63,539 nucleotides of DNA, taken from Alistipes sp. (GTDB lineage Bacteria; Bacteroidota; Bacteroidia; Bacteroidales; Rikenellaceae). Of this stretch, positions 25,574 through 60,496 are shown in pieces. The DNA lies in the NCBI RefSeq assembly GCF_021204515.1, contig NZ_JAJPZH010000037.1; one strand, written 5' to 3'. The stretch's first letter is position 1; each line of letters starts with the position of its first letter. Position numbers and translations under genes: made by a program. The notes under the pieces are model-generated. The model was not told the DNA's origin. It saw only the letters and a list, made by a program, of their open reading frames with translations, and did no database searches.

Positions 25574-26698
25574 CTATTTCGTGCCGAACCGGTAGATGCA
25601 GACCTGCGTATAGACTTCGCCGGGACGCAGTACCGTCGAGGGGAAATTCTCATGGTTGGGGCTGTCGGGATACTTCTGCGTTTCGAGCGCCAGCGATTCG
25701 CGGTAACGCTGCGGCTTGCCGTATTTGCCGTTTACCGTGCCGTCGAAAAAGTTGCCGCTGTAGAACTGCAGCGCGGGCTGGTCGCTCCACACTTCGACCG
25801 TGCGGCCCGAAGCGGGTTCCCACACCGTGGCGATCTCCTCGATGCCGTCTTCACTCCTGCGGTCGATCACCCAGTTGTGGTCGTATCCGCCGCCGTTCTT
25901 CAGCTGCGGATTCTCGTCGCCGATACGCTCGCCGATGGCGTGCGGCTCGCGGAAGTCGAACGGCGTGCCCGTCACGTCGGCGATCTCGCCCGTGGGAATC
26001 AGCACCGAATCGACCGGCGTGGTACGGCTTGCGTTGATCTTCAGCACATGGTCGAGGATCGTGCCGTTGCCTTCGCCCTTGAGGTTGAAGAAGGGATGGT
26101 GCGAAATGTTCACCACGGTCGGCTTGTCGGTTTCGGCCTCATAGTCGATGCGGAATTCGTTTTGGGGCGTGAGCGTGTAGGTCATCGTGATCTGCAGGTT
26201 GCCCGGGAATCCCTCTTCGCCGTCGGCGTGCGTGTAGTGCAGCACCAACTGGTTTTCCGTGGCCGAAACCACCTCCCATACTACGCGGTCCAGTCCGTTC
26301 AGTCCGCCGTGCAGCGTCTGCCCGTTGTTGTTCACCGGCAGGGTGTACTCCACGCCGTCGAGCGTGAAACGGCCTTTGGCGATGCGGTTGGCGTAAGGCC
26401 CTACGACAGCGCCGAGGAACCGTTCGCCGGGGTTGTCCAGATAGCGGTCGATCGACTCGTAGCCGAGTACGATGTCCTCGTAACGGCCCTCGCGGTCGGG
26501 CGTCCAAAGCGCCGCGACGCGGGCGCCGTAATTGGTGACCTGCATGGTTATTTCGCCTGCATGCAATGTGTAAAGTGCGACCTCTTTGCCGCCGACCGTG
26601 GCCTGAAAAGCCTCTTCGGGCAGCAGCCGGATGTCGGATTTCTGCGCACCGCAGGCCGCGAGCAGCAGCATGCCGAGTGCAAAAAGCGATTTTTTCAT
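25574..26698 (-). CDS. galM: aldose 1-epimerase (mutarotase), lipoprotein
   Basis: LLLAAC lipobox; YANRI, LHGG, GFPG, HHPFFNL, GYDHN, LETQ; start trimmed to MKKSLF. Confidence 0.9.
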   Translation of the reverse strand: MKKSLFALGMLLLAACGAQKSDIRLLPEEAFQATVGGKEVALYTLHAGEITMQVTNYGARVAALWTPDREGRYEDIVLGYESIDRYLDNPGERFLGAVVGPYANRIAKGRFTLDGVEYTLPVNNNGQTLHGGLNGLDRVVWEVVSATENQLVLHYTHADGEEGFPGNLQITMTYTLTPQNEFRIDYEAETDKPTVVNISHHPFFNLKGEGNGTILDHVLKINASRTTPVDSVLIPTGEIADVTGTPFDFREPHAIGERIGDENPQLKNGGGYDHNWVIDRRSEDGIEEIATVWEPASGRTVEVWSDQPALQFYSGNFFDGTVNGKYGKPQRYRESLALETQKYPDSPNHENFPSTVLRPGEVYTQVCIYRFGTK

Positions 26699-26754
26699 GA
26701 TTATCGGTTTTTCGGATTTTTCAATGCGTAAAGTTAAACGTTCTGCGGGAAATT

Positions 26755-29079
26755 CTAACGTTTGTTTCCGCTTTTTTGCACGACTTCGACCAGTCCTGCG
26801 TCGAACATTACGTTTTTCGACCGTTCCAGATCGGGATTCCGTTCGGCGTGCACGGCGATTACGTTTCTGCCGGGCCGAAGAATCCCGTCGGGCAGCGGCA
26901 GCAGGTCGCTGTGGTAGTAGTGCGGCTGACGGTTGCGGACGTCGGCCACCTTCCTGCCGTTCACGAAAACGGTGACGTTGCGGTCGTACCGCGGCCGGAC
27001 ATACACGTTGCCGGGAACCTCCTTCAGGTCGAATTCGCGCCATGCCCAGAGGTGCCGTCCCTTCCATTCGGTCCGGGCCAGATGCGCCGGGTCGGTGCGT
27101 TCGTAATAGGGGAAACTCAGCACGCCGTCGGGGTGGTTGAATCCGAACGGGGCTTCGCCCTGCTTCCATCCGGCCGGAGGAGCCGTGCTTTTCTGCCAGC
27201 CTTCCGCCGGTTTTTCCATGGTGTAATACCATTGCTGGGGTTTTCGCGCCGCATCTTCCAGTACGGTGCGCAGCGACAGATCGGGCGCATACAGCGGCTG
27301 GTGGAGTGCATACAGTTCTCCTTCGGGGAATTTCTCGACGGCGCGGTCGTAGGTCATCAGGCCGTTCACCTCGCCCTCGACGTCGGAGGTCTGGGTGTAG
27401 ATGGCGCCGCTCAATCCTTCCGAAATCATCGTGCGGAGCTGGAATACCATGTGTCTGTAAGCCTTCCTGAATTTTTCGGGGTCCTTGTACGTGGCATAGC
27501 CCCAGTTGTTCATGGCCGGATTCCAGAGGTGTCCCTCCGTCGGCAGGCCGAGTCCTCCGAATTCGCCCACGACGAATGCGCGGCCGGGTCCGGCGTTCTC
27601 CACGCGTCCCGGTCCGGGGTATTTGTGGATGTCGGCGATGTCGCCGTTGCCCATGTCCACCCAGCCGCTGACCTCGGCCAGCCGCGAAGGATCGTACTTT
27701 TTCACCCAGTCGATCAGCTGTTTGCCGCCGTACTGGCCCCAGCCCTCGTTGAACACGACCCAGTTCACGATCGACGGATAGTTGCGCAGCTGGTCGATCA
27801 TGGCTTTCAGTTCCTTCTCGTACCGGTGTGCGGCTTCGGGGTCCTTGTCGATGCCGTGCGGATAGTCTTTCAGGTTGTAGTCGTCGCCCGACACGGCGTC
27901 CTGCCATACCAGCACGCCCAGCCGGTCGCAGTGGTAGTAGAAACGGTCCGACTCTACTTTGATATGTTTGCGGATGGTGTTGAAACCGGCTTTCAGCGTG
28001 AATTCGATGTCATACAGCAACGCCTCTTCCGTCGGAGCGGTCAGCAGACCGTCGGGCCACCATCCCTGATCGAGCAGGCCGTATTGGAAGACGAATTCGC
28101 CGTTGAGCAGGATACGGTCGAATCCGTCGGCGTCTTTGCCGACCGAGATTTTGCGCATTCCGAAATAGGAATCCGCCGCGTCGGTCCGCTTTCCGTTTTC
28201 GAACACCGTCATTTTCAGGTCGTAAAGGAACGGCGATGCCGGCGACCAGAGCTTGGCGTCCGTTATGCGCAGGACGGCCTTTTCTCCCGGGCGGACGGTG
28301 GCCTCGGCGACCCGGCGGCCCTTGTCGTAAGCTTCGAACTTCACCTGCGTCGCAGCGGTGGCGTTCGGAACGTCGGCGCTGACGACGTATTGGCCGCGGT
28401 CGATGTCCGGCGTGCCGTGGTAGGAGGCGATGTACAGCGGATCGACGGCTTCCAGCCATACGGTTTTCCAGATGCCCGATACCGGGGTGTAGTGGATGCC
28501 TTTGGGGTTCAGCACCTGCTTGCCGCGCGGCTGACGTCCCTTGTCCGTGGGGTCGGTGACCTCCACTGAGACCTCCTGCGGGCCGTTTTCACGAAGCAGT
28601 TCCGTGATGTCGAACGTAAAGGCGTCGTTGCCGCCCTCGTGCGTCCCGGCTTCCCTGTCGTTGATGCGCACCGCCGCGGTATAATCCACGGCTCCGAAAT
28701 GCAGCAGAATGCGCTTTCCGCGCCATGCCGCGGGCACCTCGAACGAGCGCCGGTACCAGAGCTTTTCGGTCGGCAGGAACGTGCGCTGCACCCCCGAAAG
28801 CGACGATTCGATTCCGAACGGCACGAGGATTTTACCGTCGGCGCCGGCCGGCGCCGCAGCGCCGATCTCCGTCACGGCGTAGTCCCACAGGCCGTTGAGG
28901 TTCTGCCAGTGGGGGCGGACCAACTGCGGCCGCGGATATTCGGGCAGCGGGCAGCGCGGATCGACGCGGTCCGTCCAGCGGGTTTTGATTTTGTCTCCGG
29001 CAGGTTTCCACTCTGCTGAGACGGTCGTTGTGAGCAGGAGCGCTCCGGCGAGGAGCAGGTGTGAAAGTCGTCTGTTCAT
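26755..29079 (-). CDS. glycoside hydrolase family 2 with extra C-terminal beta-sandwich domain
   Basis: Signal peptide; YPRPQL..NLNGLW, LHFGAVD, LDQGWWPDG, RKHIKVE, FNEGWG, GEFGG. Confidence 0.88.
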   Translation of the reverse strand: MNRRLSHLLLAGALLLTTTVSAEWKPAGDKIKTRWTDRVDPRCPLPEYPRPQLVRPHWQNLNGLWDYAVTEIGAAAPAGADGKILVPFGIESSLSGVQRTFLPTEKLWYRRSFEVPAAWRGKRILLHFGAVDYTAAVRINDREAGTHEGGNDAFTFDITELLRENGPQEVSVEVTDPTDKGRQPRGKQVLNPKGIHYTPVSGIWKTVWLEAVDPLYIASYHGTPDIDRGQYVVSADVPNATAATQVKFEAYDKGRRVAEATVRPGEKAVLRITDAKLWSPASPFLYDLKMTVFENGKRTDAADSYFGMRKISVGKDADGFDRILLNGEFVFQYGLLDQGWWPDGLLTAPTEEALLYDIEFTLKAGFNTIRKHIKVESDRFYYHCDRLGVLVWQDAVSGDDYNLKDYPHGIDKDPEAAHRYEKELKAMIDQLRNYPSIVNWVVFNEGWGQYGGKQLIDWVKKYDPSRLAEVSGWVDMGNGDIADIHKYPGPGRVENAGPGRAFVVGEFGGLGLPTEGHLWNPAMNNWGYATYKDPEKFRKAYRHMVFQLRTMISEGLSGAIYTQTSDVEGEVNGLMTYDRAVEKFPEGELYALHQPLYAPDLSLRTVLEDAARKPQQWYYTMEKPAEGWQKSTAPPAGWKQGEAPFGFNHPDGVLSFPYYERTDPAHLARTEWKGRHLWAWREFDLKEVPGNVYVRPRYDRNVTVFVNGRKVADVRNRQPHYYHSDLLPLPDGILRPGRNVIAVHAERNPDLERSKNVMFDAGLVEVVQKSGNKR

Positions 29080-29086
29080 GCTGTAA

Positions 29087-30577
29087 TTACTGTTTGCGGT
29101 GTTTCTGTTTCGGTGCGGCTTCCGGATCGTTCGAGGGGGCTTTGTCCACTCCGAACGACATCGGAGGCGTCGGGCGGCCCGCTTCGCGTAGTTTCGCGCG
29201 GTATTTGTTCATCAGGGCGTGCCCGCTCAGACGGGCGTTGCCGCCCAGTGCGAGATCGGGTTCGCACGAGCCGATCCATGCGAGATAATCGTTGTACAGT
29301 TCTTCGAATTTCTCCGGATACCGCTCTTTCAGACCGTGTTTTTCGCCCGGGTCGGCTTCCAGATCGTAGAGGTCGCACGCTTTGACCCTCTTGGGATCGG
29401 AGACCAGTTTCCATTTGCCCTGACGAATGGCGAAACTGTTGCGGTTCACGCGCTGGGCGTTGTTCAGCGGCTCGCTCCAGTAGAGCGTCTCGTGGGGTGC
29501 GTCCTGCATATCGCCGCGGAAATAGGGAACGAGGTTCGTGCCCTGCAGTCCTTCGGCCTCGACGTTGGCCTGCGCCAGTACGGTCGGGACGATGTCGATG
29601 CTGATGAACGGTTCGTCGTAGACCTTTCCGGCCGGAATGACGCCCGGATAGCTCGCTATGAAGGGGACGCGGATACCGCCTTCGTAGTAGCTTCCCTTTT
29701 GTCCCCGCAGTCCGCTCAGGTCGCTTACGCCGCGTACGCCGCCGTTGTCGCTCAGGTAGAAAACGATCGTCTCGTTACGCAGGTTCAGGCTGTCGAGCGT
29801 CTGCATGACCTTTCCCACGCCTTGGTCCAGCGCCGCCGTCATGGCGCGCACCCGGTCTTTTTTTGTCGGGTTCGCCGGGTCGTCGGCATATTTTTGCAAC
29901 AACTCTTCGGGTACCTGATAGGGCGAGTGAATGGCGTTGTAGGCCAGATAGACGAAGAACGGCTTTCCCGCTTCGGCGCTGCTGCGGATGAAATCGACCG
30001 CCTGATCGGTATATTCGTACGTCGTGTAGTCCATGTCGATCGCAGGCTCCATGCCGTCGAGCGTAAACGCCAGTCCGGTGTAGGTTCCGTCCCACGAACC
30101 GCCCACCAGCGGGTCGAAATAGTCGTGCAGACCGTTGATGAAACCGTAGAATTTGTCGAATCCCCGGTTGACCGGGTGGTTGCGGATGTAATCGCCCACG
30201 TGCCACTTGCCGATGCAGGCCGTGGCGTAGCCCGCGTCGTGCAGGTATTCGCTCACCAGCCGCTGTTCGGCGGGAATGCCGCCCACGCTGGGCGATTCGA
30301 GCGAGTAGAAGCCGAAGCTCTGCTGGTATTTGCCCGTCAGCAGACCGGCGCGCGTGGGACTGCTGAGGCTTCCCGATGTGTAGCCCTGCATACACTGCAC
30401 GCCGCTGGCGGCCAGCGCGTCGATGTTGGGCGTATGGATACGGTCGGTATGCGGATAGCAGTTTACTCCGCCGTACCCTTGGTCGTCGGAGACGATCAGT
30501 ACGACGTTGGGCCGCTGTTGTGCGACGGCGGGGAGTGCGGCCAGCGCCGCGAACGGAATTACGGATATGGCTTTCAT
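29087..30577 (-). CDS. sulfatase (S1, Ser-type)
   Basis: RPNVVLIVSDDQG, SSPTRAGLLTG, GKWH, SDNGG; start trimmed to MKAISV. Confidence 0.92.
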   Translation of the reverse strand: MKAISVIPFAALAALPAVAQQRPNVVLIVSDDQGYGGVNCYPHTDRIHTPNIDALAASGVQCMQGYTSGSLSSPTRAGLLTGKYQQSFGFYSLESPSVGGIPAEQRLVSEYLHDAGYATACIGKWHVGDYIRNHPVNRGFDKFYGFINGLHDYFDPLVGGSWDGTYTGLAFTLDGMEPAIDMDYTTYEYTDQAVDFIRSSAEAGKPFFVYLAYNAIHSPYQVPEELLQKYADDPANPTKKDRVRAMTAALDQGVGKVMQTLDSLNLRNETIVFYLSDNGGVRGVSDLSGLRGQKGSYYEGGIRVPFIASYPGVIPAGKVYDEPFISIDIVPTVLAQANVEAEGLQGTNLVPYFRGDMQDAPHETLYWSEPLNNAQRVNRNSFAIRQGKWKLVSDPKRVKACDLYDLEADPGEKHGLKERYPEKFEELYNDYLAWIGSCEPDLALGGNARLSGHALMNKYRAKLREAGRPTPPMSFGVDKAPSNDPEAAPKQKHRKQ

Positions 30578-32166
30578 CGGATCTCGGATTGTGTGTGGTT
30601 GAACAGGTAGTTGTGCGGATTGCGTTTGAAACGGTAGCGGTGGCGCGGCATCGGCAGCGGGTCCTGCGTCGCAAGTTCCCATTGCAGCAGCTTGGCCGTC
30701 AGCCGGGCGCGAATGTCGGCGTATTTCTTCTCCCCTGCGAGGTTTTTCACCTCCGACGGGTCTTTTTTCAGGTCGTACAGCCAGCAGTTTCCGTCCATGT
30801 CGGCCACCAGCTTCCAGTCGCCGCTGCGCACCATGCGCATCGTGCCGCTCTGCGTCCATGTGTTGAGGCAGTCGAAGAATCCCGGCTTTTTGCCGACGGC
30901 CCCTTCCTGCTGATAATCGGTGCCGTCCTCTTTGGTGTAGTACATGCCGCCGTATCCGTCCTGCGCCATGACGCTTGCGAATTCGGCTTCGGGATAGGCT
31001 TTGCCGGTCAGCAGGGGCCACAGACTGCGGCCTTGTACGCCGTCGGGAATCGGCGCGCCGACGATCTCGCAGACCGTGGGCATGATGTCCGTCAGCGAGA
31101 CGTGCGCCGCATGGGGTTCGGCCGAAGCGCGGATGCCCGGCCCGGTCCACTGCATCGGCACGCGGGCCAGCGCGTCGTCGAGTCCCACGCCCTTCTTCAT
31201 CAGCCCGTATTCGCCCGCGAAATCGCCGTGGTCCGAGACGAAGACGATGATCGTATTGTCGTATACGCCCGTGCGTTTCAGCTCTTCGGTCAGGCGTCCC
31301 ACCTGATCGTCGATCATACGCAGCGTGCCGTGGTAGATCGACCGCAGTTTCTGCAGGTGTTCGGCATATCCCGGGTGCCCGACAGCCATCATTTCGTCGA
31401 GCAGTTCGTATTCGGCGCCCTTGGCCGCGCGGTCCGCCGCCGTGGTGCGGGGCGCCGGAAGGCTTTCGGGCGGAAACATCGAGAAGTAAGGCTCGCAGGT
31501 CTGATACGGGTTGTGCGGTTCGGGTATCGAGAACCACATCAGGAAGGGCTGGCCTTTGATGCTTTCGATCCACTGCGCGGCGTCGTCCACCATGCGGTAG
31601 GGCAGCTGCACTTCGACTCCTCCCGGCGACGGCTCCAGCCAGCGGTTCATGTTCAGGGTCTTGAGGAAACGGTCGTAAGCCGCCTCTTCGGGCGTGCGGC
31701 CCTCCTTCCCGATTTTGCCGGCATGCCCGTATTCGCACCAGAAGTCGGCTTTTTTGGCCGTCATATGGGAGTGGTTCTTGCCCACGAGCGCCGTTTTATA
31801 ACCGCTTTCGCGCGCTACGTCGAAGAGGTCCTTGGTGTAATACACGTCTTCGATATTGTGGTTGCTCCTCACGTGCGTCGCGCTCGGGAAGCGTCCCGTG
31901 AGCATCGCTACGCGCGCCGGACCGCTTGCGGGAGCGGGCGTGTAGGCCTTGTCGAACCAAGTGCCCTGCCGTGCCAGCGCATTGGTGCGCGGCATCGTTT
32001 CTAAGGGATACCCGTCGCGTCCCATCAGCTCCGTACGCAGCTGGTCGCACATGATTATTATTATATTGGGCCTTTCCGGCGCAGCGCTCTGCGCCTTTGC
32101 CGCGGGTGCGGCCGCCGCCGCGGCCATGCCGCAGCACAGGATCTGGCGTTTCATCGGGTATGTCAT
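30574..32166 (-). CDS. sulfatase (S1, Ser-type)
   Basis: RPNIIIIMCDQLR, SGPARVAMLTG, GKNH, SDHG; alternative start 32154. Confidence 0.9.
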   Translation of the reverse strand: MTYPMKRQILCCGMAAAAAAPAAKAQSAAPERPNIIIIMCDQLRTELMGRDGYPLETMPRTNALARQGTWFDKAYTPAPASGPARVAMLTGRFPSATHVRSNHNIEDVYYTKDLFDVARESGYKTALVGKNHSHMTAKKADFWCEYGHAGKIGKEGRTPEEAAYDRFLKTLNMNRWLEPSPGGVEVQLPYRMVDDAAQWIESIKGQPFLMWFSIPEPHNPYQTCEPYFSMFPPESLPAPRTTAADRAAKGAEYELLDEMMAVGHPGYAEHLQKLRSIYHGTLRMIDDQVGRLTEELKRTGVYDNTIIVFVSDHGDFAGEYGLMKKGVGLDDALARVPMQWTGPGIRASAEPHAAHVSLTDIMPTVCEIVGAPIPDGVQGRSLWPLLTGKAYPEAEFASVMAQDGYGGMYYTKEDGTDYQQEGAVGKKPGFFDCLNTWTQSGTMRMVRSGDWKLVADMDGNCWLYDLKKDPSEVKNLAGEKKYADIRARLTAKLLQWELATQDPLPMPRHRYRFKRNPHNYLFNHTQSEIR

Positions 32167-34196
32167 TTACTCCGGGTCGCAATGACCGGGAATTCGCAAA
32201 TACGCAGCGTGGTGCAGCCGTAGGGAATCAGCGTCACGGTTTCGGCCGGAACGCCCGGCAGTGCGACCGGTCCCCAAGGCAGCGGTCCCGTACTGCCGTT
32301 GTAACGGCTCCAGAACGGTATGCGTTTGGCCTGCGCCTTGATTTCGATCGGGGCGTTTTCCGTGTTCCACGGATAACTGCCGCGCGCTTTTTCCGGATCG
32401 ACGGTCACTTCGAACGCCTTTTCCGGATTGCGGAGGACCGTTTGCAGCAGTCCGTAATTCCAGTCGGTCGTGGGATGCACCTCCCAGTAATAGTCGCCCA
32501 TTCTGCCGCGCTCCTCCTCGGCGACCTCGATGCGCCGCCAATCTTCGCCGATCTTCAGCGCATAAACCAGCGGTCCGCGTTCCACGGCGACCGATTTCTC
32601 GTACCAGCGGCTCGTCGTGACTCTCATCGGCAGCACCAGCTCCACTTTGTCGCCGGGTTTCCAAGCGCGGTCGATCTTCACGACGGCCTGCTGTTTCCCG
32701 ACCGTCACGGTTTCGCCGTTTACCTTCACGACCGGCGTTTTGCACCACTCCGGGATGCGCAGGCTGAAGGGGAACTTCACCGACCCTCCTTTCTTGACGG
32801 AGGGCGTCACGGTGAATACGATCCGCTCTTCGAACGGATAGGAGGTCTCTTCGCGCACGGTTACCTCCGTACCTCCTGCGACGCGCGCCGTCACGCTCGA
32901 CGGCGAATAGACCATGGCGGCGATACCCCCGTCGGGCGTGGCGTACCACAAGTTCTGCACGAACTTGGGCCATCCCTGATGCAGGTTGGCCGTGCAGCAG
33001 GTGTAACCCGTCAGCAGGCCGAAGAGGTTGTCGTTGCCGTTGTGGTCGTTGGTGAAGTTGCGCTTGTCGCGCGAGCAGACGATCTGATTGGCCTGCTGGA
33101 AATACTGGCGCGTCATGAAATCGTCGGAGATCTGCGTCGGAAGCGCATTGAACGTGACTTTCTCCAGATAGTCGGCGTACGAACCGTCTCCCGTGATCTG
33201 GAATATCTCCTCGAGCGAAAGCATCAGTTCCACGACCGAGCATAGCTCGGTGCCCTGCGTCGGGTCGGCTCCGTGCAGCGACTCGTCGCCGCCGTACATG
33301 CCGTTGGGCCATCCGTTGAATTTACGCAGGTCGGCGAAGCCCTTCTTCACGGCTTCGAGGTGCTTCTTGTCGCCGCTCTGCTGGTAATAAATCACGGGTT
33401 CCTTGATGCCCTGCGCCAGATTCACGCAGTGTACCGAAAATTTGTTGCAGAGAAAATCGTCGCCGAGCAGTTTGCCCGTGAAGTCGAACGCCTGCCGGTG
33501 CAGCATTTCCGAGAGGTCCAGCAGGAATTTGTCGCCCGTGATGTTGTAGAGCCAGTAGACGGTCTGCAGGTTGTCGCAGACGCGGTAGAGCGACCAGAAC
33601 GACCAATGGTTCAGTTTCTTTTCGGGCAGCGTCTGAAGCTGGTAACGGAAGTATTTGGTCATGAAATTCGTAACGCGCCCGTCGCCCGTCGCCGAGTAAT
33701 ATTGCTTCAGTATCTTCAGTACCACCATTCGGGGCCACCAGTCTTCGGCGCGGTTGCGCTGCAGGCCCTTTTCTGCCGGGTAGTCCTTGTCGGGACCGAA
33801 CGAGCCGTCGGCTTTCTGGCTCGCCAGCGCCCATTCGATCCACGGCTGCACTTTCCGTTTCATGGCTTCGTCGCCGAGGATGTAGGCCAGCGGCAGCAGG
33901 CCGTCGATCCAGTACGGGCCGCGTTCCCACATGTCGCCGTCTCCGCCGAGCCAGCCGTTGCGCTGGCCCATCACCAGCGGATAGAGTTCGTCCATGTGCC
34001 CGGTCATGCCGTTGCGCTGCCGCTGGAGCATCTCCAGCAGCCAGCCTTCGGGTTTGATGCTGCCCAGCGGCAGTTCCAGATAGGGCTTTCCGACCAGCGG
34101 TTCGCGGTTCGGAACGTATTGGGATTGTTGTGCGCGGATCTCTCCCGTGAGCAGCAGACCCGTCAGGAGCGTTGCGAGAATAAGTCTGGTTTTCAT
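32163..34196 (-). CDS. GH127/GH146 beta-L-arabinofuranosidase-family protein
   Basis: LPLGSIKPEGWL, WERGPYW.DG, HCVN, TELC, YTCCTAN (Zn/Cys cluster), RGPLVY, TLIPYG. Confidence 0.85.
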   Translation of the reverse strand: MKTRLILATLLTGLLLTGEIRAQQSQYVPNREPLVGKPYLELPLGSIKPEGWLLEMLQRQRNGMTGHMDELYPLVMGQRNGWLGGDGDMWERGPYWIDGLLPLAYILGDEAMKRKVQPWIEWALASQKADGSFGPDKDYPAEKGLQRNRAEDWWPRMVVLKILKQYYSATGDGRVTNFMTKYFRYQLQTLPEKKLNHWSFWSLYRVCDNLQTVYWLYNITGDKFLLDLSEMLHRQAFDFTGKLLGDDFLCNKFSVHCVNLAQGIKEPVIYYQQSGDKKHLEAVKKGFADLRKFNGWPNGMYGGDESLHGADPTQGTELCSVVELMLSLEEIFQITGDGSYADYLEKVTFNALPTQISDDFMTRQYFQQANQIVCSRDKRNFTNDHNGNDNLFGLLTGYTCCTANLHQGWPKFVQNLWYATPDGGIAAMVYSPSSVTARVAGGTEVTVREETSYPFEERIVFTVTPSVKKGGSVKFPFSLRIPEWCKTPVVKVNGETVTVGKQQAVVKIDRAWKPGDKVELVLPMRVTTSRWYEKSVAVERGPLVYALKIGEDWRRIEVAEEERGRMGDYYWEVHPTTDWNYGLLQTVLRNPEKAFEVTVDPEKARGSYPWNTENAPIEIKAQAKRIPFWSRYNGSTGPLPWGPVALPGVPAETVTLIPYGCTTLRICEFPVIATRSK

Positions 34197-37374: not shown

Positions 37375-38469
37375 TTATTTCTTTTTGGGCGTTCCTGCCG
37401 GCTTGGGCCGTTCGGCCGAAAGCGGCAGCGGTTCGCCGATTACCGGATAATCCCCGTCCCAGCTGATTTTCTGGGCGCGCGGCGAACGGGCCGAGCCGTG
37501 TCCGCGCGTGGCCGTGACGGACCGGGCGTGGTAGAGTATGTAGGTCTCCGAGCCGTCGGGCGACGGGAAGAAACTGTTGTGTCCCGTGCAGAAGACCTTG
37601 TTTTCGGGCGACTGTTTCAGGATCGGCTGCGGCGCCTTGCTCCACGACGCCGGATCGAGCAGGTCCGCATCGGCGTCGGCCGTAAGCAGTCCGAGGCAGT
37701 AATAGGCCGTCCAGACGCCGCTGGCCGAGTAGGCGATATGTATGCGGCGGCCCGAGGGGGCTGCCAGCGGCTGCGGACCTTCGTTCACGTAGACGATGTG
37801 TCCCAGCCGTGTGCCGTCGTCGTTGATGTAGCGGCGTTCCCAGTCGTATTCGGGCTGCGAGATCAGCACGCGTTCCGACGCCAATGTCCACGGGTTTTCC
37901 ATGCGTGCGATGTAGATGCACTGCGTTTCGGTTTTGATGCGCTGCGTTTTCCATCCGGACCAGACCATGTAAAGCGTTCCGCGGTGGCGGAAAACCGAGG
38001 CGTCGATGGACCAGTTGTCGTCCGGATCGGTGACGATTTTTCCCTTTACCGAGAATTTTCCCTTCATCGGGTCGGGATTCGCGTTCTCCAGCACATACGT
38101 CCGGTGGTTGTCCGTGTTTCCGTCGTCGGCCGTGAAATAGACGTACCATTTGCCGTCGATGCGGTGTATTTCCGGGGCCCAGATATGCTGGAACCAAGAA
38201 GGTGCGTCCGGTTTCCAGATCGTCTTCCGTTCGGCATTCCGGAGGTCGGTGATGTCGTCCGTAACCCACAGGTCGATACGGTTGCCCAGCGTGTGCATGT
38301 AGTAATACAGTCCGTCGTGGAAGGTCGCCCACGGATCGCCGCCGCCGTCGAGCAGCGGATTGACGAACGTTTCGCTGGTCTCTTTTTGCGGCGTCCGGCA
38401 GCAACCGCCGGCCGGCGGAACCGCCGCGGCGGCCGCCAGCAGGAGTGTCAGTATGCGGAGGAGTTTCAT
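37375..38469 (-). CDS. glycoside hydrolase family 43 (arabinofuranosidase-like), probable lipoprotein
   Basis: GDPW (base), WAPEI, SIDAS (pKa modulator), VNEGP (acid), GHNSF. Confidence 0.9.
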   Translation of the reverse strand: MKLLRILTLLLAAAAAVPPAGGCCRTPQKETSETFVNPLLDGGGDPWATFHDGLYYYMHTLGNRIDLWVTDDITDLRNAERKTIWKPDAPSWFQHIWAPEIHRIDGKWYVYFTADDGNTDNHRTYVLENANPDPMKGKFSVKGKIVTDPDDNWSIDASVFRHRGTLYMVWSGWKTQRIKTETQCIYIARMENPWTLASERVLISQPEYDWERRYINDDGTRLGHIVYVNEGPQPLAAPSGRRIHIAYSASGVWTAYYCLGLLTADADADLLDPASWSKAPQPILKQSPENKVFCTGHNSFFPSPDGSETYILYHARSVTATRGHGSARSPRAQKISWDGDYPVIGEPLPLSAERPKPAGTPKKK

Positions 38470-44992: not shown

Positions 44993-45001
44993 AACGCCAC
45001 G

Positions 45002-49270: not shown

Positions 49271-49306
49271 AAAAACGAGAGCGGCGTCCGCAAAGGACGC
49301 CGCTCT
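49271..49306 (-). terminator. intrinsic terminator of the susCD operon (possibly bidirectional)
   Basis: Perfect 12-bp stem agagcggcgtcc/ggacgccgctct between convergent genes; T-run on the minus strand. Confidence 0.78.
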
Positions 49307-53395: not shown

Positions 53396-53407
53396 AGGGT
53401 TGTCGGA

Positions 53408-56400
53408 TTAAAAGTTGAAGTTAAGGCCGCAGGTAATCATTTTGCTGCGCGGATAAGCGTCGAAGTCGTATCCGGCGACGATGGAGCCTGCTCCCTGCGA
53501 GCTCATGCTCACTTCGGGGTCGCTTCCCGTATAGTCGGTCCAGAGCCAGAGGTTCTGTCCCGAAAGATAGACACTGGCATTGCGGATGCCGATCTTCTTG
53601 CAGAATTTGGCGGGCAGCTGGTACGTGAGCTTGATATTGCTCAGACGCAGGAACGAACCGTCTTCCAAGTAGGTGTCCTGCAGGTTGTAGGTGCTCGTGT
53701 ATCCGGCGCGCGGAAGCTGGGCGTCGGGGTTGCCCGTCCCCGGCACGGCGATCGGCTGGCCGTTTTCGAGAATCACGTTTCCGGCGCCGTCGGTCTCCCA
53801 GTCGGGACCCACCCAGCGGTTGGTCATCGTGCGCATGCCGTTGGTGGACGTACTCATGTTTTCGCAGAAAACGCGCGTGGCGTTGAGCAGCTTGCCGCCG
53901 TAACTGTACTGGAACAGCAGCCGCAGACTCAGCGGGCCGTAGGAGAGCGTGGTGCCGAAGCCGCCGTAGAAGTCGGGATTGGCGTTGCCCAGAATCACGC
54001 GGTCGTCTTCGTTGATGACGTTGTCGCCGTTTTGGTCGATGTATTTCCAGTCTCCGGCCGCCGGGGTGTTGCCCATGACCGACTTGATGTGGTTCAGGTC
54101 CTCGTCCCCGTACTGGAAGAATCCGTCGGTCTTGTATCCGTACCACGTGCCCAGCGGTTCTCCCACCTGTACGATGATCTGGTCCTTTGCCGAGTTGCGG
54201 TAATTCACCGTGCGATAGAAGTTGTTGGTCGTGCCGAGCGAAAGCACTTTGTTGGCGTTGGTGGCGATATTGAAGTCCATGGTCCAGCCCACTTTACGGC
54301 TTCCGCTGCGGAGGATTTCGGCGTAGACGCTCGCTTCGAATCCCCGGTTGCGTATGCGGCCCAGATTCATCAGCTGCGAGGTGTTGCCGCTGCCCGACGG
54401 GGCTACGGGGACATTGAGCAGCAGGTCCTTGGAGATTTTGTAGTAGTAATCCAGCACCAGCGAGATTCTGTTTTTCAGGAACGATATTTCAATACCTGCG
54501 TCGAATTGCGTGGTCGTCTCCCACGAGAGGTTCTCATTGGCGATATTGGTGAGGTAGAAACCCTTGTCCACGGCGTCGCCGAAATTGACCGATCCGATTC
54601 CGTACGTCTGCATCGACTTGTAGAGACCGATGGCCTGATTACCGGTCTGGCCCCAGCTGGTGCGGACTTTGAGGTTCGAAATCACGCGGCTGTTTTTGAG
54701 GAACTTCTCCTCCGACACGCGCCATGCCAGCGCTCCCGAGGGAAAATAGCCCCACTTGGCGCCTTTGGCGAAGCGCGACGAACCGTCGGCGCGGAGCGAC
54801 GCCGTCACGAGGTACTTGCCTTTGTAGTTGTAGTTGATACGCGCCAGCGCCGACATGATGCTCCACTCCTGCATGTAGGAACTCGGAGCCTGCAGGTCGG
54901 TTCCTGCGCCGATGTTGCCCAGTCCCAGACCTTCGTAGGGGAAGTAGCGGGCGTTGGCCACCACGCGTTCCATTTTGTTGTTTTCGAACGTGAGACCCGC
55001 CATGACGTTGAGGCTGTGTTTGCCGAATTTGCGGTCGTAGGTCAGTGTGTTCTCGTTCAGCAGGTCCACCATGTCGATACTTCCCACCCGGGCGCGTCCG
55101 TGGCTCTGGCGGCCGGGACCGGAATTGTAGCCGTAAAACTGGCTCTGCTTGACGTTGTTCACCTTGGCGGCGAACGATGAGCGGAGCGTCAGGTATTTCA
55201 TCGGACGGATGGTCAGCGCCGTCATCACATTGAGGCCTTTGCTGATCTTCTCCAGCACCGAGTTCTCGATCAGCGAGAGCGGATTGCTGATCTGTACCAC
55301 CTCCTCGGCGTCGAGGTCTTCGTCGTCGCTGTTGTCGTACCGCGATTTATTGGGGCTGTACGAGAGCGTTTTGATAAACAGACCGGTGTCGTTGCCCACG
55401 CCCGACGCCTGCGTCAGGCCGTTGTGTTCGTTCCAGTTGGCCGAGGCATTGACGTTGATGCTGAGCCACTTCTTGATTTCGTGATCCATGTTGATACGCC
55501 CGGTGATGCGCGACAGGTCGGTGTTCTCCACCACGCCCCACATCTTGTAATAGTTGAGCGTGGCGATGTACTTCGACTTCTCCGAGCCGCCCGTAAGGGT
55601 GACCTGATGGTTGTGCGTCAGACCGATGCGCGTGATTTCGTCCTGCCAGTTGGTGTTGTTCTGTTTGCGCCAGTCCACCCGGTTGGTCAGGCTGTCGAGT
55701 CCCTTCATGTAATTGTTCCAGCGGGTTTCGTCGTACAGGTTGTTGCCCACGACCGTAGCGGGGTAGCGTTTCTTCTCGTTGTTGAAGAGCTGCAGCTCCT
55801 TGTTCGACATCACCTCGTATTCGGTGGGGCGGACCGCAACCGTCACATACCCCGAATAGGAGACCTTCATGGCGCCCTTCTGAGCCTGCTTGGTGGTGAT
55901 GAGCACCACGCCGTTGGCGCCGCGCGAACCGTAGATGGCCGTTGCCGAAGCGTCTTTGAGCACTTCGATCGACTCGATGTCCTCGGGGTTGAGTTCGGCC
56001 AGCGGACTGGTGTAGATACCCTGATTGCTTCCCGACAGCGAACCGATGTTCATTTCCGTCGCGTCTGCGATCATGGGGAATCCGTCGATGACATAAAGCG
56101 GTTCCGAGCTGGCGTTGATCGAGCTTCCGCCGCGGATGCGGATGCTGGCCGCAGCGCCCGGGGCGCCGTCCTGCGTCATCACCTGCACGCCCGCGATACG
56201 GCCTTTGAGCAGGTCCTCGACCGTGGTTCCGGCGCGTCCCTCGACATCCTCGCCCGAAAGGCTCTGCACCGATCCCGTGACGTCGCTGCGTTTGGCGTGT
56301 CCGTAACCGATGTTCACGACCACCTCGTCGATCATCTGCGAATCCTCGACGAGTTTGATTTCGATCCGCGTTTTGCTGCGGATTTCTACTGTCTGGGCCT

Positions 56401-56644
56401 TGTAGCCCAGAAATGAGACGTACAGCAGGTTTCTTCCTTTGGGTACGTCGAGCGAGAACTGTCCCTTGCTGTCGGTGGTCGTGCCGCGCTGCGTGCCGTC
56501 CACCAGTACGGTCGCGCCGGCGATGGGTTGGGAGTCGGAGGCCGCGATGACCGTTCCGGTGACTTTCGTGGGCTGGGCGTACGCCGCGATCGAGAACAGG
56601 GCGAAGAGCGCCGGCAACAAAAGTCTTACGTAGATTTTTGTCAT
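53408..56644 (-). CDS. susC: SusC/RagA TonB-dependent transporter
   Basis: IRIRGGSS, PLYVIDG, IEVLKDASATAIYGSRGANGVVLITTK, LSWETT, DGSFLRL, C-terminal F. Confidence 0.96.
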   Translation of the reverse strand: MTKIYVRLLLPALFALFSIAAYAQPTKVTGTVIAASDSQPIAGATVLVDGTQRGTTTDSKGQFSLDVPKGRNLLYVSFLGYKAQTVEIRSKTRIEIKLVEDSQMIDEVVVNIGYGHAKRSDVTGSVQSLSGEDVEGRAGTTVEDLLKGRIAGVQVMTQDGAPGAAASIRIRGGSSINASSEPLYVIDGFPMIADATEMNIGSLSGSNQGIYTSPLAELNPEDIESIEVLKDASATAIYGSRGANGVVLITTKQAQKGAMKVSYSGYVTVAVRPTEYEVMSNKELQLFNNEKKRYPATVVGNNLYDETRWNNYMKGLDSLTNRVDWRKQNNTNWQDEITRIGLTHNHQVTLTGGSEKSKYIATLNYYKMWGVVENTDLSRITGRINMDHEIKKWLSINVNASANWNEHNGLTQASGVGNDTGLFIKTLSYSPNKSRYDNSDDEDLDAEEVVQISNPLSLIENSVLEKISKGLNVMTALTIRPMKYLTLRSSFAAKVNNVKQSQFYGYNSGPGRQSHGRARVGSIDMVDLLNENTLTYDRKFGKHSLNVMAGLTFENNKMERVVANARYFPYEGLGLGNIGAGTDLQAPSSYMQEWSIMSALARINYNYKGKYLVTASLRADGSSRFAKGAKWGYFPSGALAWRVSEEKFLKNSRVISNLKVRTSWGQTGNQAIGLYKSMQTYGIGSVNFGDAVDKGFYLTNIANENLSWETTTQFDAGIEISFLKNRISLVLDYYYKISKDLLLNVPVAPSGSGNTSQLMNLGRIRNRGFEASVYAEILRSGSRKVGWTMDFNIATNANKVLSLGTTNNFYRTVNYRNSAKDQIIVQVGEPLGTWYGYKTDGFFQYGDEDLNHIKSVMGNTPAAGDWKYIDQNGDNVINEDDRVILGNANPDFYGGFGTTLSYGPLSLRLLFQYSYGGKLLNATRVFCENMSTSTNGMRTMTNRWVGPDWETDGAGNVILENGQPIAVPGTGNPDAQLPRAGYTSTYNLQDTYLEDGSFLRLSNIKLTYQLPAKFCKKIGIRNASVYLSGQNLWLWTDYTGSDPEVSMSSQGAGSIVAGYDFDAYPRSKMITCGLNFNF

Positions 56645-57972: not shown

Positions 57973-59379
57973 ATGAACTGCAAACCCCTTTGTAAAGGTC
58001 TTCTGGGAACGGGCGTCTGTCTGGCCGCCGCCCTGCCGGCCGCCGCTGCGGGAGATTCCGGGCGGCCCAACATCCTTTTTATCGTCGCCGACGATCTGGG
58101 CTGGGGCGATGTCGGCTACCACGGCAGCGTGATCCCCACGCCCAATATCGATTCGCTCGCCCGCCGGGGCGTTGAAATGGACCGCTTCTATTCGGCTCCC
58201 GTCAGTTCTCCCGCCCGCGCGGGTTTGCTGACCGGCCGTTATCCCAGCCGTTTCGGCATCCGCGAGACGGTGATTCCTCCGTGGCGCGATTACGGACTCG
58301 ACCCTGCCGAGCAGACGCTTGCCGACCTGCTGGCGGCCAACGGCTACGCCAACCGCGCGATGGTCGGCAAATGGCATCTGGGCCACGGCCGGCTGGCCTA
58401 TCACCCGCTCAACCGCGGATTCAACCATTTCTACGGCTGCCTGAACGGGGCGATCGACTATTTTTCGCACGAGCGCGAAAACGAACTCGACTGGCACCGC
58501 GACTGGGAGCCGTGCTACGACAAAGGCTATTCGACCGACCTGATCGCCGACGAGGCGGTTCGCTGCATCGGGGAATACGCGCACGCGGACGAACCTTATT
58601 TCCTCTACGTGGCGTTCAACGCTCCGCATGGACCCTGTCAGGCTCCCGAAGAGGAGATCGCCGAACATATCTCGCTCGAACAGTTCGCAAAACTCAAACC
58701 CCGCCAGAAAGCGGCGTATACCTACCGCGCGATGGTGTCGCGCATGGACAAGGGCATCGGTCGGATTCTCGAAGCGCTGGACCGCAGCGGCGAACTGGAA
58801 AACACGCTGATTCTCTTTATGAGCGACAACGGCGGAGTCCCCAACCTGCCCGGCGGTTCGACCTGCAGTCCGCTGCGCGGCCATAAGTTTCAGGAGTGGG
58901 ACGGCGGCGTGCGTGTTCCGGCCCTCCTTTGCTGGAAAGGCCGTTTCCTGAGCGGCGTCCGGCTTCCGCAGGTCGCTGCGTTCGTCGATCTGGCGCCGAC
59001 CGTCGCCGCGCTGATCGGCGCCGGGGAACCCGCCCGCCCGTACGACGGTGTGAGCCTGCTGCCGGTGCTTACGGGCCGGGAGCCGGTTTTCCCCCGCGAT
59101 CTCTATCTCGGCTGCGGCGCTGCGGTCTGCGACGATTACAAACTGGTGCTCGAAGGGCGCAATCCGAAGATGAAGATCGACTCCGATTTTCTGGTCTATT
59201 ATCCCGAAGACGCCTATGAGACGACCAACCGGATCGCCGAACACGCCGTCGAGGCCGAACGCCTGCGCAGTTTCATCCGCTGTTACGACACGATCCGTCC
59301 TGCCCACGAAGAACTGCCCTACGGCTATGGCAAGGAGGGATTCAAGGCGCCCAAGGAGTGGCGCGTAACCAAACCCTGA
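57973..59379 (+). CDS. arylsulfatase (S1, Ser-type, arylsulfatase B-like)
   Basis: RPNILFIVADDLG, SSPARAGLLTG, GKWH, FNAPH, SDNGG. Confidence 0.92.
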   Translation: MNCKPLCKGLLGTGVCLAAALPAAAAGDSGRPNILFIVADDLGWGDVGYHGSVIPTPNIDSLARRGVEMDRFYSAPVSSPARAGLLTGRYPSRFGIRETVIPPWRDYGLDPAEQTLADLLAANGYANRAMVGKWHLGHGRLAYHPLNRGFNHFYGCLNGAIDYFSHERENELDWHRDWEPCYDKGYSTDLIADEAVRCIGEYAHADEPYFLYVAFNAPHGPCQAPEEEIAEHISLEQFAKLKPRQKAAYTYRAMVSRMDKGIGRILEALDRSGELENTLILFMSDNGGVPNLPGGSTCSPLRGHKFQEWDGGVRVPALLCWKGRFLSGVRLPQVAAFVDLAPTVAALIGAGEPARPYDGVSLLPVLTGREPVFPRDLYLGCGAAVCDDYKLVLEGRNPKMKIDSDFLVYYPEDAYETTNRIAEHAVEAERLRSFIRCYDTIRPAHEELPYGYGKEGFKAPKEWRVTKP

Positions 59380-59398
59380 TCTTAAAAACAGAACCGAT

Positions 59399-60496
59399 AT
59401 GAAAAAATTCATTCTCTGCGCCGCGGCCGCCTTTATGCTGTTTCCCGCGCCCCGCGCCGCAGCCCAGAGCCGCAAGGCGAAACTGGCGGCTGTCGAAGCC
59501 CACCGGCAGGCCGTCCATATCAAGACCGACGGCTGGATCCGCGATCCCTACATCATTCTCGGACCCGACGGCATGTACTACCTGACCGGCACCACGCCCC
59601 GTCCGGGCGACCCGCGGGAGAAGTCCGACAAATACAACACCGGTCTGGGCGACGCTTCGATCGTCGGCCCTGCGGTTCAGTTGTGGCGCAGTCCCGATCT
59701 GGTGGACTGGGAGTACCTCGGAACGCCCTATACGCTCGACGACGCTTCGTCTTGGGCCAAGGAGCGCAACAAATCCCCGATGCGGCTGATCTGGGCGCCG
59801 GAACTGCACTGGGACGCCGATAACGGGCGCTGGATGCTGGTGCACTGTCCCCGCAACGTGAGCTGTCTGGCCGTGACCCGAGGAGCCGACATCCGCGGTC
59901 CGTGGACGCATCCCGCTCCCAAAGCCTTCTACCAGAAACACGATCCCTCGCTCTTCCGCGACGACGACGGCACTTGGTACTTCCTCTTCGCCAACACGAA
60001 AATCGCTCCCGTCAAGTCCGATTTCAGCGGACTGGCCGCCGAACCGGTGCGGATCGATCCGTCGAACCGGGTGATCGGCCACGAGGGGGCCACGATGCGT
60101 AAAATCGGGAACAAATACGTGCATTTCGGCACGGCGTGGTCCACCGACAAAGGCCGCCACGGCTCCTACAACCTTTATTACTGTACTTCCGACAAATCGA
60201 CCGGTCCCTACTCCGAGCGCCGTTTCGCGGGGCGTTTCCTCGGTCACGGCACTCCGTTTCAGGACAAGGCGGGCAACTGGTGGTGTACGGCGTTCTTCAA
60301 CGGCAACGTGCCGCCGCTGGACAGCCGCGGCATCCAGACCCGCGATCTGAGCGAAGACGCCCAGACCATCAATCCGCAGGGCGTAACCATCGTTCCGCTC
60401 GAAGTGAAAGTGCTCGACGACGGCGACGTCCGTATCCGGGCCGTCGATCCGCGTTACGGCACTCCGGGACCCGACGAAGTGCAGCAATTCGACTGA
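59399..60496 (+). CDS. glycoside hydrolase family 43
   Basis: Signal peptide; IRDPYI, IWAPEL, HDPSLF, GHEGA, GHGTPF. Confidence 0.87.
   Translation: MKKFILCAAAAFMLFPAPRAAAQSRKAKLAAVEAHRQAVHIKTDGWIRDPYIILGPDGMYYLTGTTPRPGDPREKSDKYNTGLGDASIVGPAVQLWRSPDLVDWEYLGTPYTLDDASSWAKERNKSPMRLIWAPELHWDADNGRWMLVHCPRNVSCLAVTRGADIRGPWTHPAPKAFYQKHDPSLFRDDDGTWYFLFANTKIAPVKSDFSGLAAEPVRIDPSNRVIGHEGATMRKIGNKYVHFGTAWSTDKGRHGSYNLYYCTSDKSTGPYSERRFAGRFLGHGTPFQDKAGNWWCTAFFNGNVPPLDSRGIQTRDLSEDAQTINPQGVTIVPLEVKVLDDGDVRIRAVDPRYGTPGPDEVQQFD

What the first reader, a model, noticed from the sequence alone, without database searches (positions are those of the whole stretch)
25574..60496. Seven-sulfatase PUL whose glycosidases point to a sulfated furanose-rich glycan
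Seen: 7 sulfatases, 3 GH43, 2 paralogous GH2, GH127/146, a GH5_13-like enzyme, a mutarotase, SusCD and an HTCS. No lyases, GH88, GH20, GH29, GH33 or GH16 are recognisable. Known: GH43, GH127/146 and GH5_13 include arabinofuranosidases and galactofuranosidases, while GAG, mucin and carrageenan PULs rely on the missing families. Inference: the substrate is a heavily sulfated arabinan/galactan (e.g. from green algae) or a microbial furanose glycan, a specificity I do not recognise among characterised gut PULs.
Basis: partly seen in the sequence, partly recalled or inferred. Interest (0 to 1): 0.7.

Follow-up and report, generated by a model that had tools for sequence, protein, structure and literature searches.

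The report
Sulfated furanose glycan utilization locus
A gut bacterium carries a 35-kb gene cluster with a sugar importer, seven sulfatases and enzymes closest to furanose-sugar cutters, which likely lets it feed on a sulfated, galactofuranose-bearing glycan whose source is still unknown.

Summary
Gene content is confirmed: 19 genes, with 7 Ser-type sulfatases, 3 GH43, 2 GH2, GH127-like, GH5, mutarotase, HTCS, SusC/D and a BACON lipoprotein; no lyase, GH88, GH20, GH29, GH33 or GH16. Both GH2s keep all eight active-site residues of the Galf-specific enzyme ORF1110. Two S1_4-like sulfatases keep the galactose-binding R72/E335 of BT4683. Homologues of six of the enzymes recur, probably in one locus, in a distant congener. 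A sulfated Galf/Araf substrate is therefore the best reading (0.55). Against it: five relatives keep the sulfatase core at about 80% identity without the furanosidases, two of them beside a heparinase-like PUL, and no backbone-cutting enzyme is recognisable. A green-algal source is unsupported; sister loci pair the same enzymes with alpha-mannanases. New: the GH43 beside SusC lacks two of three catalytic carboxylates, as do three orthologues. The adjacent anSME is a core flank, not part of the PUL. No matching characterised PUL was found in 10 searches; B. thetaiotaomicron PUL59 could not be compared by sequence.

The parts
25574..26698 (-). Aldose 1-epimerase (GalM-like), 374 aa
   Evidence: PF01263 E 3e-89; orthologue at 79-81% after S3 in G610, G453, G537
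26755..29079 (-). GH2a, GH2_18-like predicted beta-D-galactofuranosidase, 774 aa
   Evidence: 9J6M/9J6N E 1e-140, 7SF2 E 1e-177; all 8 ORF1110 site residues kept
29087..30577 (-). Sulfatase S1, 496 aa, Ser-type
   Evidence: PF00884; 56% paralogue also just upstream of a GH2a paralogue on own contig C158
30574..32166 (-). Sulfatase S2, 530 aa, no close solved relative
   Evidence: PF00884; best PDB E 3e-39; 59-61% homologue in the alpha-mannan/Galf sister PUL
32163..34196 (-). GH127/146-like cysteine glycosidase, 677 aa; Glu317, Cys319, Cys400, Cys401 present; distant from characterised members
   Evidence: PF07944+PF20736; best PDB E 1e-20; motifs; clade in 41 of 400 order genomes
34193..35668 (-). 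Sulfatase S3, S1_8-like, 491 aa; Lys259 in this assembly where homologues have Glu
   Evidence: best PDB S1_8A E 6e-43; Glu in 8 of 8 homologues; the 3 runs that cover the site read the Glu codon
35680..37353 (-). Sulfatase S4, S1_4-like, 557 aa
   Evidence: 7ALL E 1.5e-106, R72/E335 equivalents kept
37375..38469 (-). GH43a, GH43_26-like predicted alpha-L-arabinofuranosidase, full Asp45/Asp156/Glu230 triad, possible lipoprotein
   Evidence: 9NXG, 5M8B, 3AKF at E 1e-53 to 1e-60; triad
38483..39883 (-). Sulfatase S5, 466 aa; nearest solved relatives are Gal/GalNAc-6- and -4-sulfatases, at low score
   Evidence: best PDB E 7e-54; 82-85% orthologues in 5 of 258 congeners
39876..41633 (-). Sulfatase S6, S1_4-like, 585 aa
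   Evidence: 38% to S4; motifs; 79% orthologue in G458, deletion scar in G453
41926..43746 (+). GH2b, GH2_18-like predicted beta-D-galactofuranosidase, 606 aa
   Evidence: 7SF2 E 1e-259, 9J6N E 1e-161; motifs
43778..44992 (+). GH5 enzyme, GH5_13-like by recall; NEP and TEW glutamates present
   Evidence: PF00150 E 1e-4; Atlas 0.99; motifs; no PDB hit
45160..49197 (+). Hybrid two-component sensor/regulator, 1345 aa
   Evidence: Reg_prop, Y_Y_Y, HisKA, HATPase_c, Response_reg, HTH_18; closest seen 42-44%, in the sister PUL
49328..51574 (-). BACON/GLUG surface lipoprotein (predicted glycan-binding protein), 748 aa
   Evidence: PF13004, PF07581; 30-33% homologues follow the SusD relatives
51587..53395 (-). 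SusD, rare clade
   Evidence: PF07980/PF14322; 0 of 60 relatives at E 1e-40; 15 homologues at 42-73%
53408..56644 (-). SusC TonB-dependent transporter
   Evidence: TIGR04056 878 bits
56671..57777 (-). GH43b, GH43_26-like fold without the catalytic base (Asp to Asn) and pKa modulator (Asp to His), acid Glu kept; start probably GTG at 57777; predicted lipoprotein
   Evidence: alignment; model pLDDT 88; best Foldseek hits are arabinofuranosidases 9NXJ/5M8B/3AKF, TM 0.76-0.78
57973..59379 (+). Sulfatase S7, 468 aa
   Evidence: PF00884; 77-80% orthologues divergent from S5 in G610, G453, G537, G011
59399..60496 (+). GH43c, full triad, clade rare in Bacteroidota
   Evidence: PF04616; 0 of 400 phylum genomes at E 1e-80; named relatives include Pontiella desulfatans (60%), Pirellulaceae, Verrucomicrobia
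60525..60554 (+). Terminator-like hairpin (13 pairs) between GH43c and anSME; similar hairpins at 45001-45031 (+) and 49278-49306 (-)
   Evidence: the scan as a whole is not clearly enriched (28 found against 21.4 +/- 4.1)
60639..61901 (+). anSME sulfatase maturase: needed by the Ser-type sulfatases, but a core flanking gene, not part of the PUL
   Evidence: TIGR03942 above cut-off; only hit in the genome; 86-88% orthologues beside other genes in 5 of 5 relatives

Best explanation
This is a SusC/D polysaccharide utilization locus that likely imports and dismantles a sulfated glycan carrying beta-D-galactofuranose and probably arabinofuranose residues. Shown: the gene set, the conserved Galf pocket in both GH2s, the galactose-contacting residues in two S1_4-like sulfatases, and the recurrence of these enzymes together elsewhere. 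Inferred steps: (1) SusD, the BACON lipoprotein and the catalytically altered GH43b bind oligosaccharide at the surface, and SusC imports it. (2) In the periplasm the seven sulfatases, activated by anSME, remove sulfate from different positions. (3) GH2a, GH2b and the GH5 trim Galf, GH43a trims alpha-L-Araf, and the GH127-like enzyme and GH43c cut other terminal linkages; desulfation and trimming alternate, because exo-enzymes stall at sulfated ends. (4) GalM anomerises the freed galactose. (5) The HTCS senses an intermediate and turns on the divergent operons. No endo-enzyme is recognisable, so the locus probably works on short side chains or fragments released by other loci or other microbes. 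A microbial or micro-eukaryotic surface glycan seems more likely than a macroalgal wall polymer.
For: GH2s: next to the uncharacterised 7SF2, the best PDB hits are the Galf-ase 9J6M/N (E 1e-161, 1e-141); the remaining GH2s other than 7XYR score E 1e-21 or worse. K212, Y228, H401, N463, E464, E530, Y551 and E594 of ORF1110 all have counterparts. GH2_18 has 5 characterised Galf-ases, one also active on Araf. S4 keeps R72/E335 of 7ALL, the residues reported to bind Gal O2 in BT4683; S6 has the same motifs. In the distant congener G603, homologues of GH43c (61%), S4 (62%), GH2a (48%), S7 (55%), S5 (56%) and GH127-like (52%) lie with an HTCS on two contigs whose ends overlap inside the GH2 gene over 35 bases with one mismatch. 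Own contig C158 has GH43a (67%), S1 (56%), GH2a (64%), an S1_4-like sulfatase, HTCS and SusC/D. An S1_4-like sulfatase lies within the 20-kb region in 6 of 40 GH2_18 regions (three independent arrangements). G453 carries a deletion scar of S6, so the short cassettes of relatives are at least partly remnants. Sulfated polymers with Galf or Araf exist.
Against: Five congeners keep S5 and S3 with S7 or S6 at 77-85% identity without any of the furanosidases. In two of them the cassette adjoins a PUL with two heparinase II/III-like proteins (plus a GH88-like gene in G610), and in one a GH115/GH105 PUL. The closest S4 relatives (66-67%) sit in a PUL with two BNR sialidase-like proteins. 31 of 40 GH2_18 regions and 16 of 20 GH127-like regions show no sulfatase hit. 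The two long SusD-clade loci have sulfatases and GH36 but no furanosidase homologue within 10 kb. No sulfatase could be assigned a linkage; five of the seven have no solved relative better than about E 1e-54, or were not searched. A shared operator between the two divergent promoters was only weakly seen (16 of 20 bases, against 14-15 in 12 shuffles). No expression or activity data.
Confidence: 0.55

Rival explanations
1. The locus is a mosaic of two functions: an inherited sulfatase cassette (S7, S6, S5, S3, GalM) that desulfates galactose or hexosamine sulfates from various glycans, and furanosidase and SusC/D blocks for an unsulfated Galf/Araf glycan.
For: The cassette stands alone in 5 congeners, beside three different neighbourhoods. 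The furanosidase blocks interrupt it at three places (blastn). SusD relatives travel with different enzymes. The site between GH36 and anSME is variable: 6-22 kb in 5 relatives, 58 kb here.
Against: The extra blocks themselves carry sulfatases (S4, S2, S1). G603 links S7, S5 and S4 with GH2_18, GH127-like and GH43c. G453 shows loss by deletion. Genes within the long operon abut or overlap, and GC3 is uniform at 0.75-0.82.
Confidence: 0.25
2. The substrate is specifically a green-algal (Cladophorales-type) sulfated xylogalactoarabinan eaten by the host.
For: These polymers have sulfate, beta-D-Galf side chains and terminal xylose, occur in fresh water, and one Chaetomorpha fraction has sulfated 5-linked alpha-L-Araf. 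GH43c's named relatives are in sulfated-polysaccharide degraders. SusD-clade loci carry GH36 and a melibiase-C-domain protein, which could cut beta-L-Arap.
Against: The backbone is 4-linked beta-L-arabinopyranose and no GH27/GH36-type or endo-acting enzyme is in the locus. The window's GH36 is 23 kb away and is a core gene. Host diet is unknown; holders are recorded only as animal gut or unlabelled metagenomes and one coded organism.
Confidence: 0.12
3. It is a glycosaminoglycan or mucin locus whose lyases and hexosaminidases are encoded elsewhere.
For: S1_4, S1_8 and S1_15-like sulfatases include host-glycan enzymes. The cassette adjoins a heparinase-like PUL in G610 and G011.
Against: That adjacency holds in 2 of 5 cassette carriers only. 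Heparinase-like, GH88 and GH105 queries found nothing in this genome at E 1e-10 (not found with these queries, assembly 97% complete). Mammals do not make Galf (abstracts), so the glycosidases would have no target.
Confidence: 0.06

Closest known systems
B. thetaiotaomicron PUL59 region (BT3481-BT3490 and neighbours)
   Same: SusC/D with four clustered sulfatases, one of them the S1_4 enzyme BT3487 (6S-Gal); inducer unidentified (passages). Nearby locus tags include GH43 BT3467/BT3515/BT3516, GH76 BT3521, GH92 BT3527 and GH127/146 BT3531, a mix like the sister loci found here.
   Different: Controlled by ECF sigma SigW-1, not shown to use an HTCS; neighbours include alpha-mannanases, absent here. 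Orthology untested: no handle for that genome was found. That those neighbours belong to PUL59 is recalled.
GH2_18 beta-D-galactofuranosidase ORF1110 of Streptomyces sp. JHA19 (PDB 9J6M)
   Same: All eight active-site residues, three-domain core, E 1e-140 to 1e-161.
   Different: A lone secreted enzyme with CBM42 that acts on fungal galactomannan; no sulfatase context. Activity of the window's GH2s not measured.
GH43_26-type exo-alpha-L-arabinofuranosidases (3AKF, 5M8B, 9NXG; subfamily label recalled)
   Same: GH43a has the full triad; GH43b has the same predicted fold.
   Different: GH43b lacks two of three catalytic carboxylates and the conserved His and Arg of the pocket.
S1_4 sulfatase BT4683 (3S-Gal; PDB 7ALL, identified by recall and by matching residue numbers)
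   Same: S4 at E 1e-106 with R72/E335 equivalents; S6 has the same motifs.
   Different: BT4683 acts on mucin-type LacNAc; S1_4 members differ in the position they cleave, so the linkage cannot be transferred.
Alpha-mannan PULs (GH76/GH92/GH125)
   Same: Sister loci in G610, G453, G458, G634 and G639 combine alpha-mannan enzymes (GH76, GH125 or GH92, by locus) with GH2_18 and S1_4-like sulfatases.
   Different: The window's locus has no mannanase; this genome encodes GH76, GH125 and many GH92 elsewhere.

Membership tests
Bacteroidota polysaccharide utilization locus | Adjacent susC-susD pair | tested here: met
   TIGR04056 and PF07980/PF14322, 13 bases apart
Bacteroidota polysaccharide utilization locus | Linked CAZymes or sulfatases and a sensor-regulator | tested here: met
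   15 enzymes and an HTCS
Bacteroidota polysaccharide utilization locus | Co-induction by one glycan | not testable with these tools
   No RNA holder listed
GH2_18 beta-D-galactofuranosidase | ORF1110 active-site residues, including the C5-C6 glycol grip (K212, Y228, Y551, E594) | tested here: met
   8 of 8 in GH2a by alignment, 8 of 8 in GH2b by motif
GH2_18 beta-D-galactofuranosidase | NE acid/base motif (TV in the GH2_19 structure 7XYR) and higher score to 9J6M than to 7XYR | tested here: met
   FNEGW and FNEAW; E 1e-161 against 1e-92
GH2_18 beta-D-galactofuranosidase | Activity on beta-D-Galf | not testable with these tools
   Needs an assay
GH5_13 | Clusters with characterised GH5_13 enzymes | not tested
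   No reference sequence or subfamily model at hand; only GH5 membership and both glutamates seen; the label is recalled
GH127/GH146 cysteine glycosidase | Cys3-Glu zinc site | tested here: met
   E317, C319, C400, C401 align with the site in solved GH127
GH127/GH146 cysteine glycosidase | Close kinship to a characterised beta-L-arabinofuranosidase | tested here: not met
   Best E 1e-20, to the entry scored as aceric acid hydrolase-like by NCBIfam below cut-off; 22% to a typical GH127
Catalytic GH43 (GH43a, GH43c) | Base Asp, modulator Asp, acid Glu | tested here: met
Catalytic GH43 (GH43b) | Base Asp, modulator Asp, acid Glu | tested here: not met
   Asn, His, Glu in GH43b and 3 of 3 orthologues; Asp, Asp, Glu in 120 of 120 GH43a homologues
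S1 formylglycine sulfatase | C/S-x-P/A-x-R motif and a maturase | tested here: met
   7 of 7 Ser-type; anSME present
S1 formylglycine sulfatase | SulfAtlas subfamily and linkage | tested here: inconclusive
   S4 and S6 S1_4-like, S3 S1_8-like; S2 and S5 weak hits only; S1 and S7 not searched against PDB
GAG or mucin PUL | Lyase plus GH88, or GH20/GH29/GH33/GH16, in the locus | tested here: not met
   None among 19 genes
B. thetaiotaomicron PUL59 | Orthologous SusC/D, sulfatases and synteny | not tested

The most novel reading that the evidence does not exclude
A gut Bacteroidota pathway dedicated to a sulfated galactofuranose/arabinofuranose glycan that has not been described in the intestine. 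Sulfatases act on sulfated furanoses, and a His-substituted GH43 clade either binds the glycan or uses a new chemistry. The HTCS sensor and SusD would be baits to identify the glycan, perhaps also the unknown inducer of B. thetaiotaomicron PUL59.
Probability: 0.3. Interest if true: 0.72.

Novelty: new variant of a known kind. Interest (0 to 1): 0.45.

Why it matters
Characterised gut sulfatases act on host glycans or red-algal galactans (recalled; the papers read cover host glycans). Galf is made by fungi, protozoa, bacteria and some green algae, not by mammals. A locus that joins seven sulfatases to Galf-ases points to an unrecognised sulfated, non-mammalian glycan in animal guts. It gives a compact enzyme set for finding that glycan, candidate furanose-sulfate sulfatases, an uncharacterised GH127-like clade, and a GH43 with a rebuilt active site. 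The architecture itself is an ordinary PUL, and uncharacterised sulfatase-rich PULs are common in this genus.

Tried and rejected
anSME as a PUL member: rejected; it is a core gene at this site, with a hairpin in front of it. Window GH36 as a displaced PUL member: not supported; 77-79% orthologues flank anSME in 5 of 5 relatives. S3 as a dead enzyme: the Lys is private to this assembly; the 3 of 4 runs that cover the site read the Glu codon. Heparinase-like PUL as the ancestral partner: seen in 2 of 5 cassette carriers only. A full syntenic copy of the locus: not found among 258 congeners by GH2b, GH43b and S5 searches (40 of about 85 GH2b places were fetched) nor among 160 SusD loci, of which only 3 were close. 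Sequence comparison with B. thetaiotaomicron: no handle found. Single-sequence fold of the GH5: pLDDT 39, unusable. Promoter scans: sigma-70 sites 4 against 6.0 expected; TAnnTTTG (recalled consensus) 10 against 10.4 expected. Expression: no RNA holder listed. Earlier scan findings: none returned. No tRNA in the window. Literature: 10 searches listed no paper on a PUL for a sulfated furanose glycan; most subscription papers and all bioRxiv supplements are outside the search, and the supplement of PMC12596196 could not be read.
Full report
Setting. The window is the whole of contig C119 of a 3.54-Mb, 57% GC assembly. No call names the organism; from the gene repertoire, the size of its genus (259 genomes) and a Rikenellaceae relative of SusD I infer Alistipes. 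The DNA occurs in at least three studies, among them animal gut metagenomes.

Observation. All 19 genes in 25574-60496 were assigned. They form four blocks: S6-S5-GH43a-S4-S3-GH127like-S2-S1-GH2a-GalM (minus), GH2b-GH5-HTCS (plus), GH43b-SusC-SusD-BACON (minus) and S7-GH43c (plus).

The glycosidases. The strongest evidence is from the two GH2s. After the uncharacterised 7SF2, their best solved relative is the Galf-specific ORF1110 (9J6M/9J6N). I read parts 2 and 3 of 4 of the structure paper (PMC11627007). Its eight active-site residues map, with a constant offset of 23 checked on four metal-site residues, onto identical residues in GH2a and onto the same motifs in GH2b. These include the residues that hold the C5-C6 glycol and distinguish Galf from Araf. 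The GH2 subfamily paper (PMC12243196, passages and supplement rows) places 9J6M in GH2_18, with five characterised Galf-ases, one also active on Araf. GH43a is closest to exo-arabinofuranosidases at E about 1e-53 to 1e-60 and has the full triad. The GH5 has both glutamates. Its GH5_13 label is recalled, not tested; characterised GH5_13 enzymes cut Galf or Araf (PMC6442616 and PMC12290620, passages). The GH127-like protein has the Cys3-Glu site (PMC10850190, passages) but is only about 22% identical to a typical GH127, so beta-L-arabinofuranosidase is a guess. GH43c belongs to a clade not found in 400 sampled Bacteroidota genomes, whose named members include Pontiella desulfatans, Pirellulaceae and Verrucomicrobia.

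GH43b. The GH43 that leads the susC operon is 46% identical to GH43a and folds the same way (pLDDT 88; best matches are arabinofuranosidases). It has Asn for the general base and His for the pKa modulator, and keeps the acid Glu. All 3 orthologues found among 258 congeners share these changes, while 120 of 120 GH43a homologues are canonical. Among the best 150 cluster representatives, 16 have His and 130 Asp at the modulator position, so this is a small, conserved clade. Its place and a probable lipoprotein cysteine (read by eye) suggest a surface binding protein; an altered chemistry is not excluded. One search listed no paper on it.

The sulfatases. All seven are Ser-type and need anSME. S4 and S6 are S1_4-like and keep the R72/E335 pair that contacts galactose in BT4683 (bioRxiv 2020.11.20.392076, passages). 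S1_4 members cleave 3S- or 6S-Gal, so the position cannot be predicted. S3 is S1_8-like. S2 and S5 have only distant solved relatives. S1 and S7 were not searched against PDB.

Do sulfatases and furanosidases belong together? For: G603, a distant congener, has homologues of GH43c, S4, GH2a, S7, S5 and the GH127-like enzyme at 48-62%, with an HTCS, on two contigs whose ends overlap within the GH2 gene (35 bases, one mismatch); no SusC/D was seen in the stretches fetched. This genome's contig C158 repeats GH43a-S1-GH2a with an S1_4-like gene and SusC/D. G610, G453 and G458 have a PUL with GH43b, GH2b (69%), S2-like (60%) and S3-like (65%) genes, two S1_4-like genes and the HTCS closest to this one (42-44%), together with GH76, GH125 and a GtaA-like protein. 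In all, 6 of 40 GH2_18 regions hold an S1_4-like gene and 9 of 40 any sulfatase; kin are not independent. Against: five congeners keep only S7/S5/S3 (with GalM where seen) or S6/S5/S3 at about 80% identity. Their neighbours differ: a heparinase-like PUL in G610 and G011, a GH115/GH105 PUL in G458, an S8 peptidase in G453 and G537. G453 retains the first 20-odd codons of S6 between S7 and S5, which shows that at least some shortening was by deletion; it does not show that the furanosidase blocks were ancestral. The nearest S4 relatives sit with BNR sialidase-like proteins. The SusC/D-BACON module has few relatives, and the two long loci that carry them have sulfatases and GH36 but no furanosidases within 10 kb. 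The locus has plainly been shuffled; a common substrate is likely but not shown.

Boundaries. GH36 (95-2302) and anSME are 6-22 kb apart in five relatives and 58 kb apart here. The flexirubin/aryl-polyene-like cluster and the PUL fill this variable site. anSME is therefore a flank, and a hairpin separates it from GH43c.

Substrate. Cladophorales make sulfated arabinans with Galf and xylose branches, in fresh water too (PMC5694217 and PMC9695659, abstracts; PMC7550628, passages). Their backbone is beta-L-arabinopyranose, for which the locus has no evident enzyme. The sister loci instead tie Galf-ases and sulfatases to alpha-mannanases, and this genome has GH76, GH125 and many GH92 genes elsewhere. 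I therefore favour a microbial or micro-eukaryotic sulfated Galf-bearing glycan, trimmed from the ends, over a specific algal polymer.

Comparison with what is known. The nearest described system is B. thetaiotaomicron PUL59, with four sulfatases and an unidentified inducer (PMC12596196, passages); nearby locus tags encode GH43, GH76, GH92 and GH127/146 (PMC12834350 and PMC10850190, passages). I could not test orthology. The Maribacter arabinogalactan PULs have other contents (PMC11036162, passages). Ten searches listed no characterised PUL of this composition.

Verdict. A real PUL of ordinary architecture with an unusual and partly well-supported predicted specificity: new variant of a known kind, interest 0.45. 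The chance that it serves an undescribed sulfated furanose glycan with new enzyme activities is about 0.3.

Noticed in passing
window 2584-25423: About 23-kb flexirubin/aryl-polyene-like biosynthetic cluster (label recalled): aromatic amino acid lyase, four ketosynthase-like genes, FabG, acyltransferases, MMPL-acyltransferase-methyltransferase fusion, B12 radical SAM, CoA ligase. A 46-69% syntenic copy is in G456 at another site. It starts 151 bases after GalM on the same strand.
   Followed up: partly
window 34892-34894: S3 codon reads Lys here, Glu in 8 of 8 homologues and in the 3 runs that cover it: an assembly error or a strain-private allele at a predicted metal ligand.
   Followed up: yes
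window 61974-63524: EmrB/DHA2-type MFS transporter convergent with anSME (TIGR00711); 82-83% orthologues at the same place in G610 and G453.
   Followed up: partly
G000 contig C158, 12356-33539 (L292): Paralogous PUL with GH43a, S1, GH2a, an S1_4-like gene, HTCS, BACON, SusC/D and a 748-aa protein with only weak GH127/GH76-like hits; a candidate new glycosidase.
   Followed up: partly
G000 contig C124, 907-14673 (L294): Another cluster with four full sulfatases, a GH43, a GH51-like enzyme, two GalM and a GntR regulator.
   Followed up: partly
L188, L228, L239 (G610) and kin G453, G458: Sister PUL with at least seven sulfatases, GH76 x2, GH125, GH2_18, the altered GH43, an M60-like protein, two SusC/D pairs and fasciclin lipoproteins; G011 keeps little more than the GH2.
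   Followed up: partly
window 41634-41925; L286 and L281 upstream of S6: A TTTTGAAyAT-like motif with a weaker repeat about 22 bases on is seen upstream of S6 in three species (read by eye); possible regulator site, not tested statistically.
   Followed up: no
window 39777 and 43767: Other strains differ by an 18-base deletion near the start of S5 (2 runs) and a 4-base insertion between GH2b and GH5 (4 runs).
   Followed up: no
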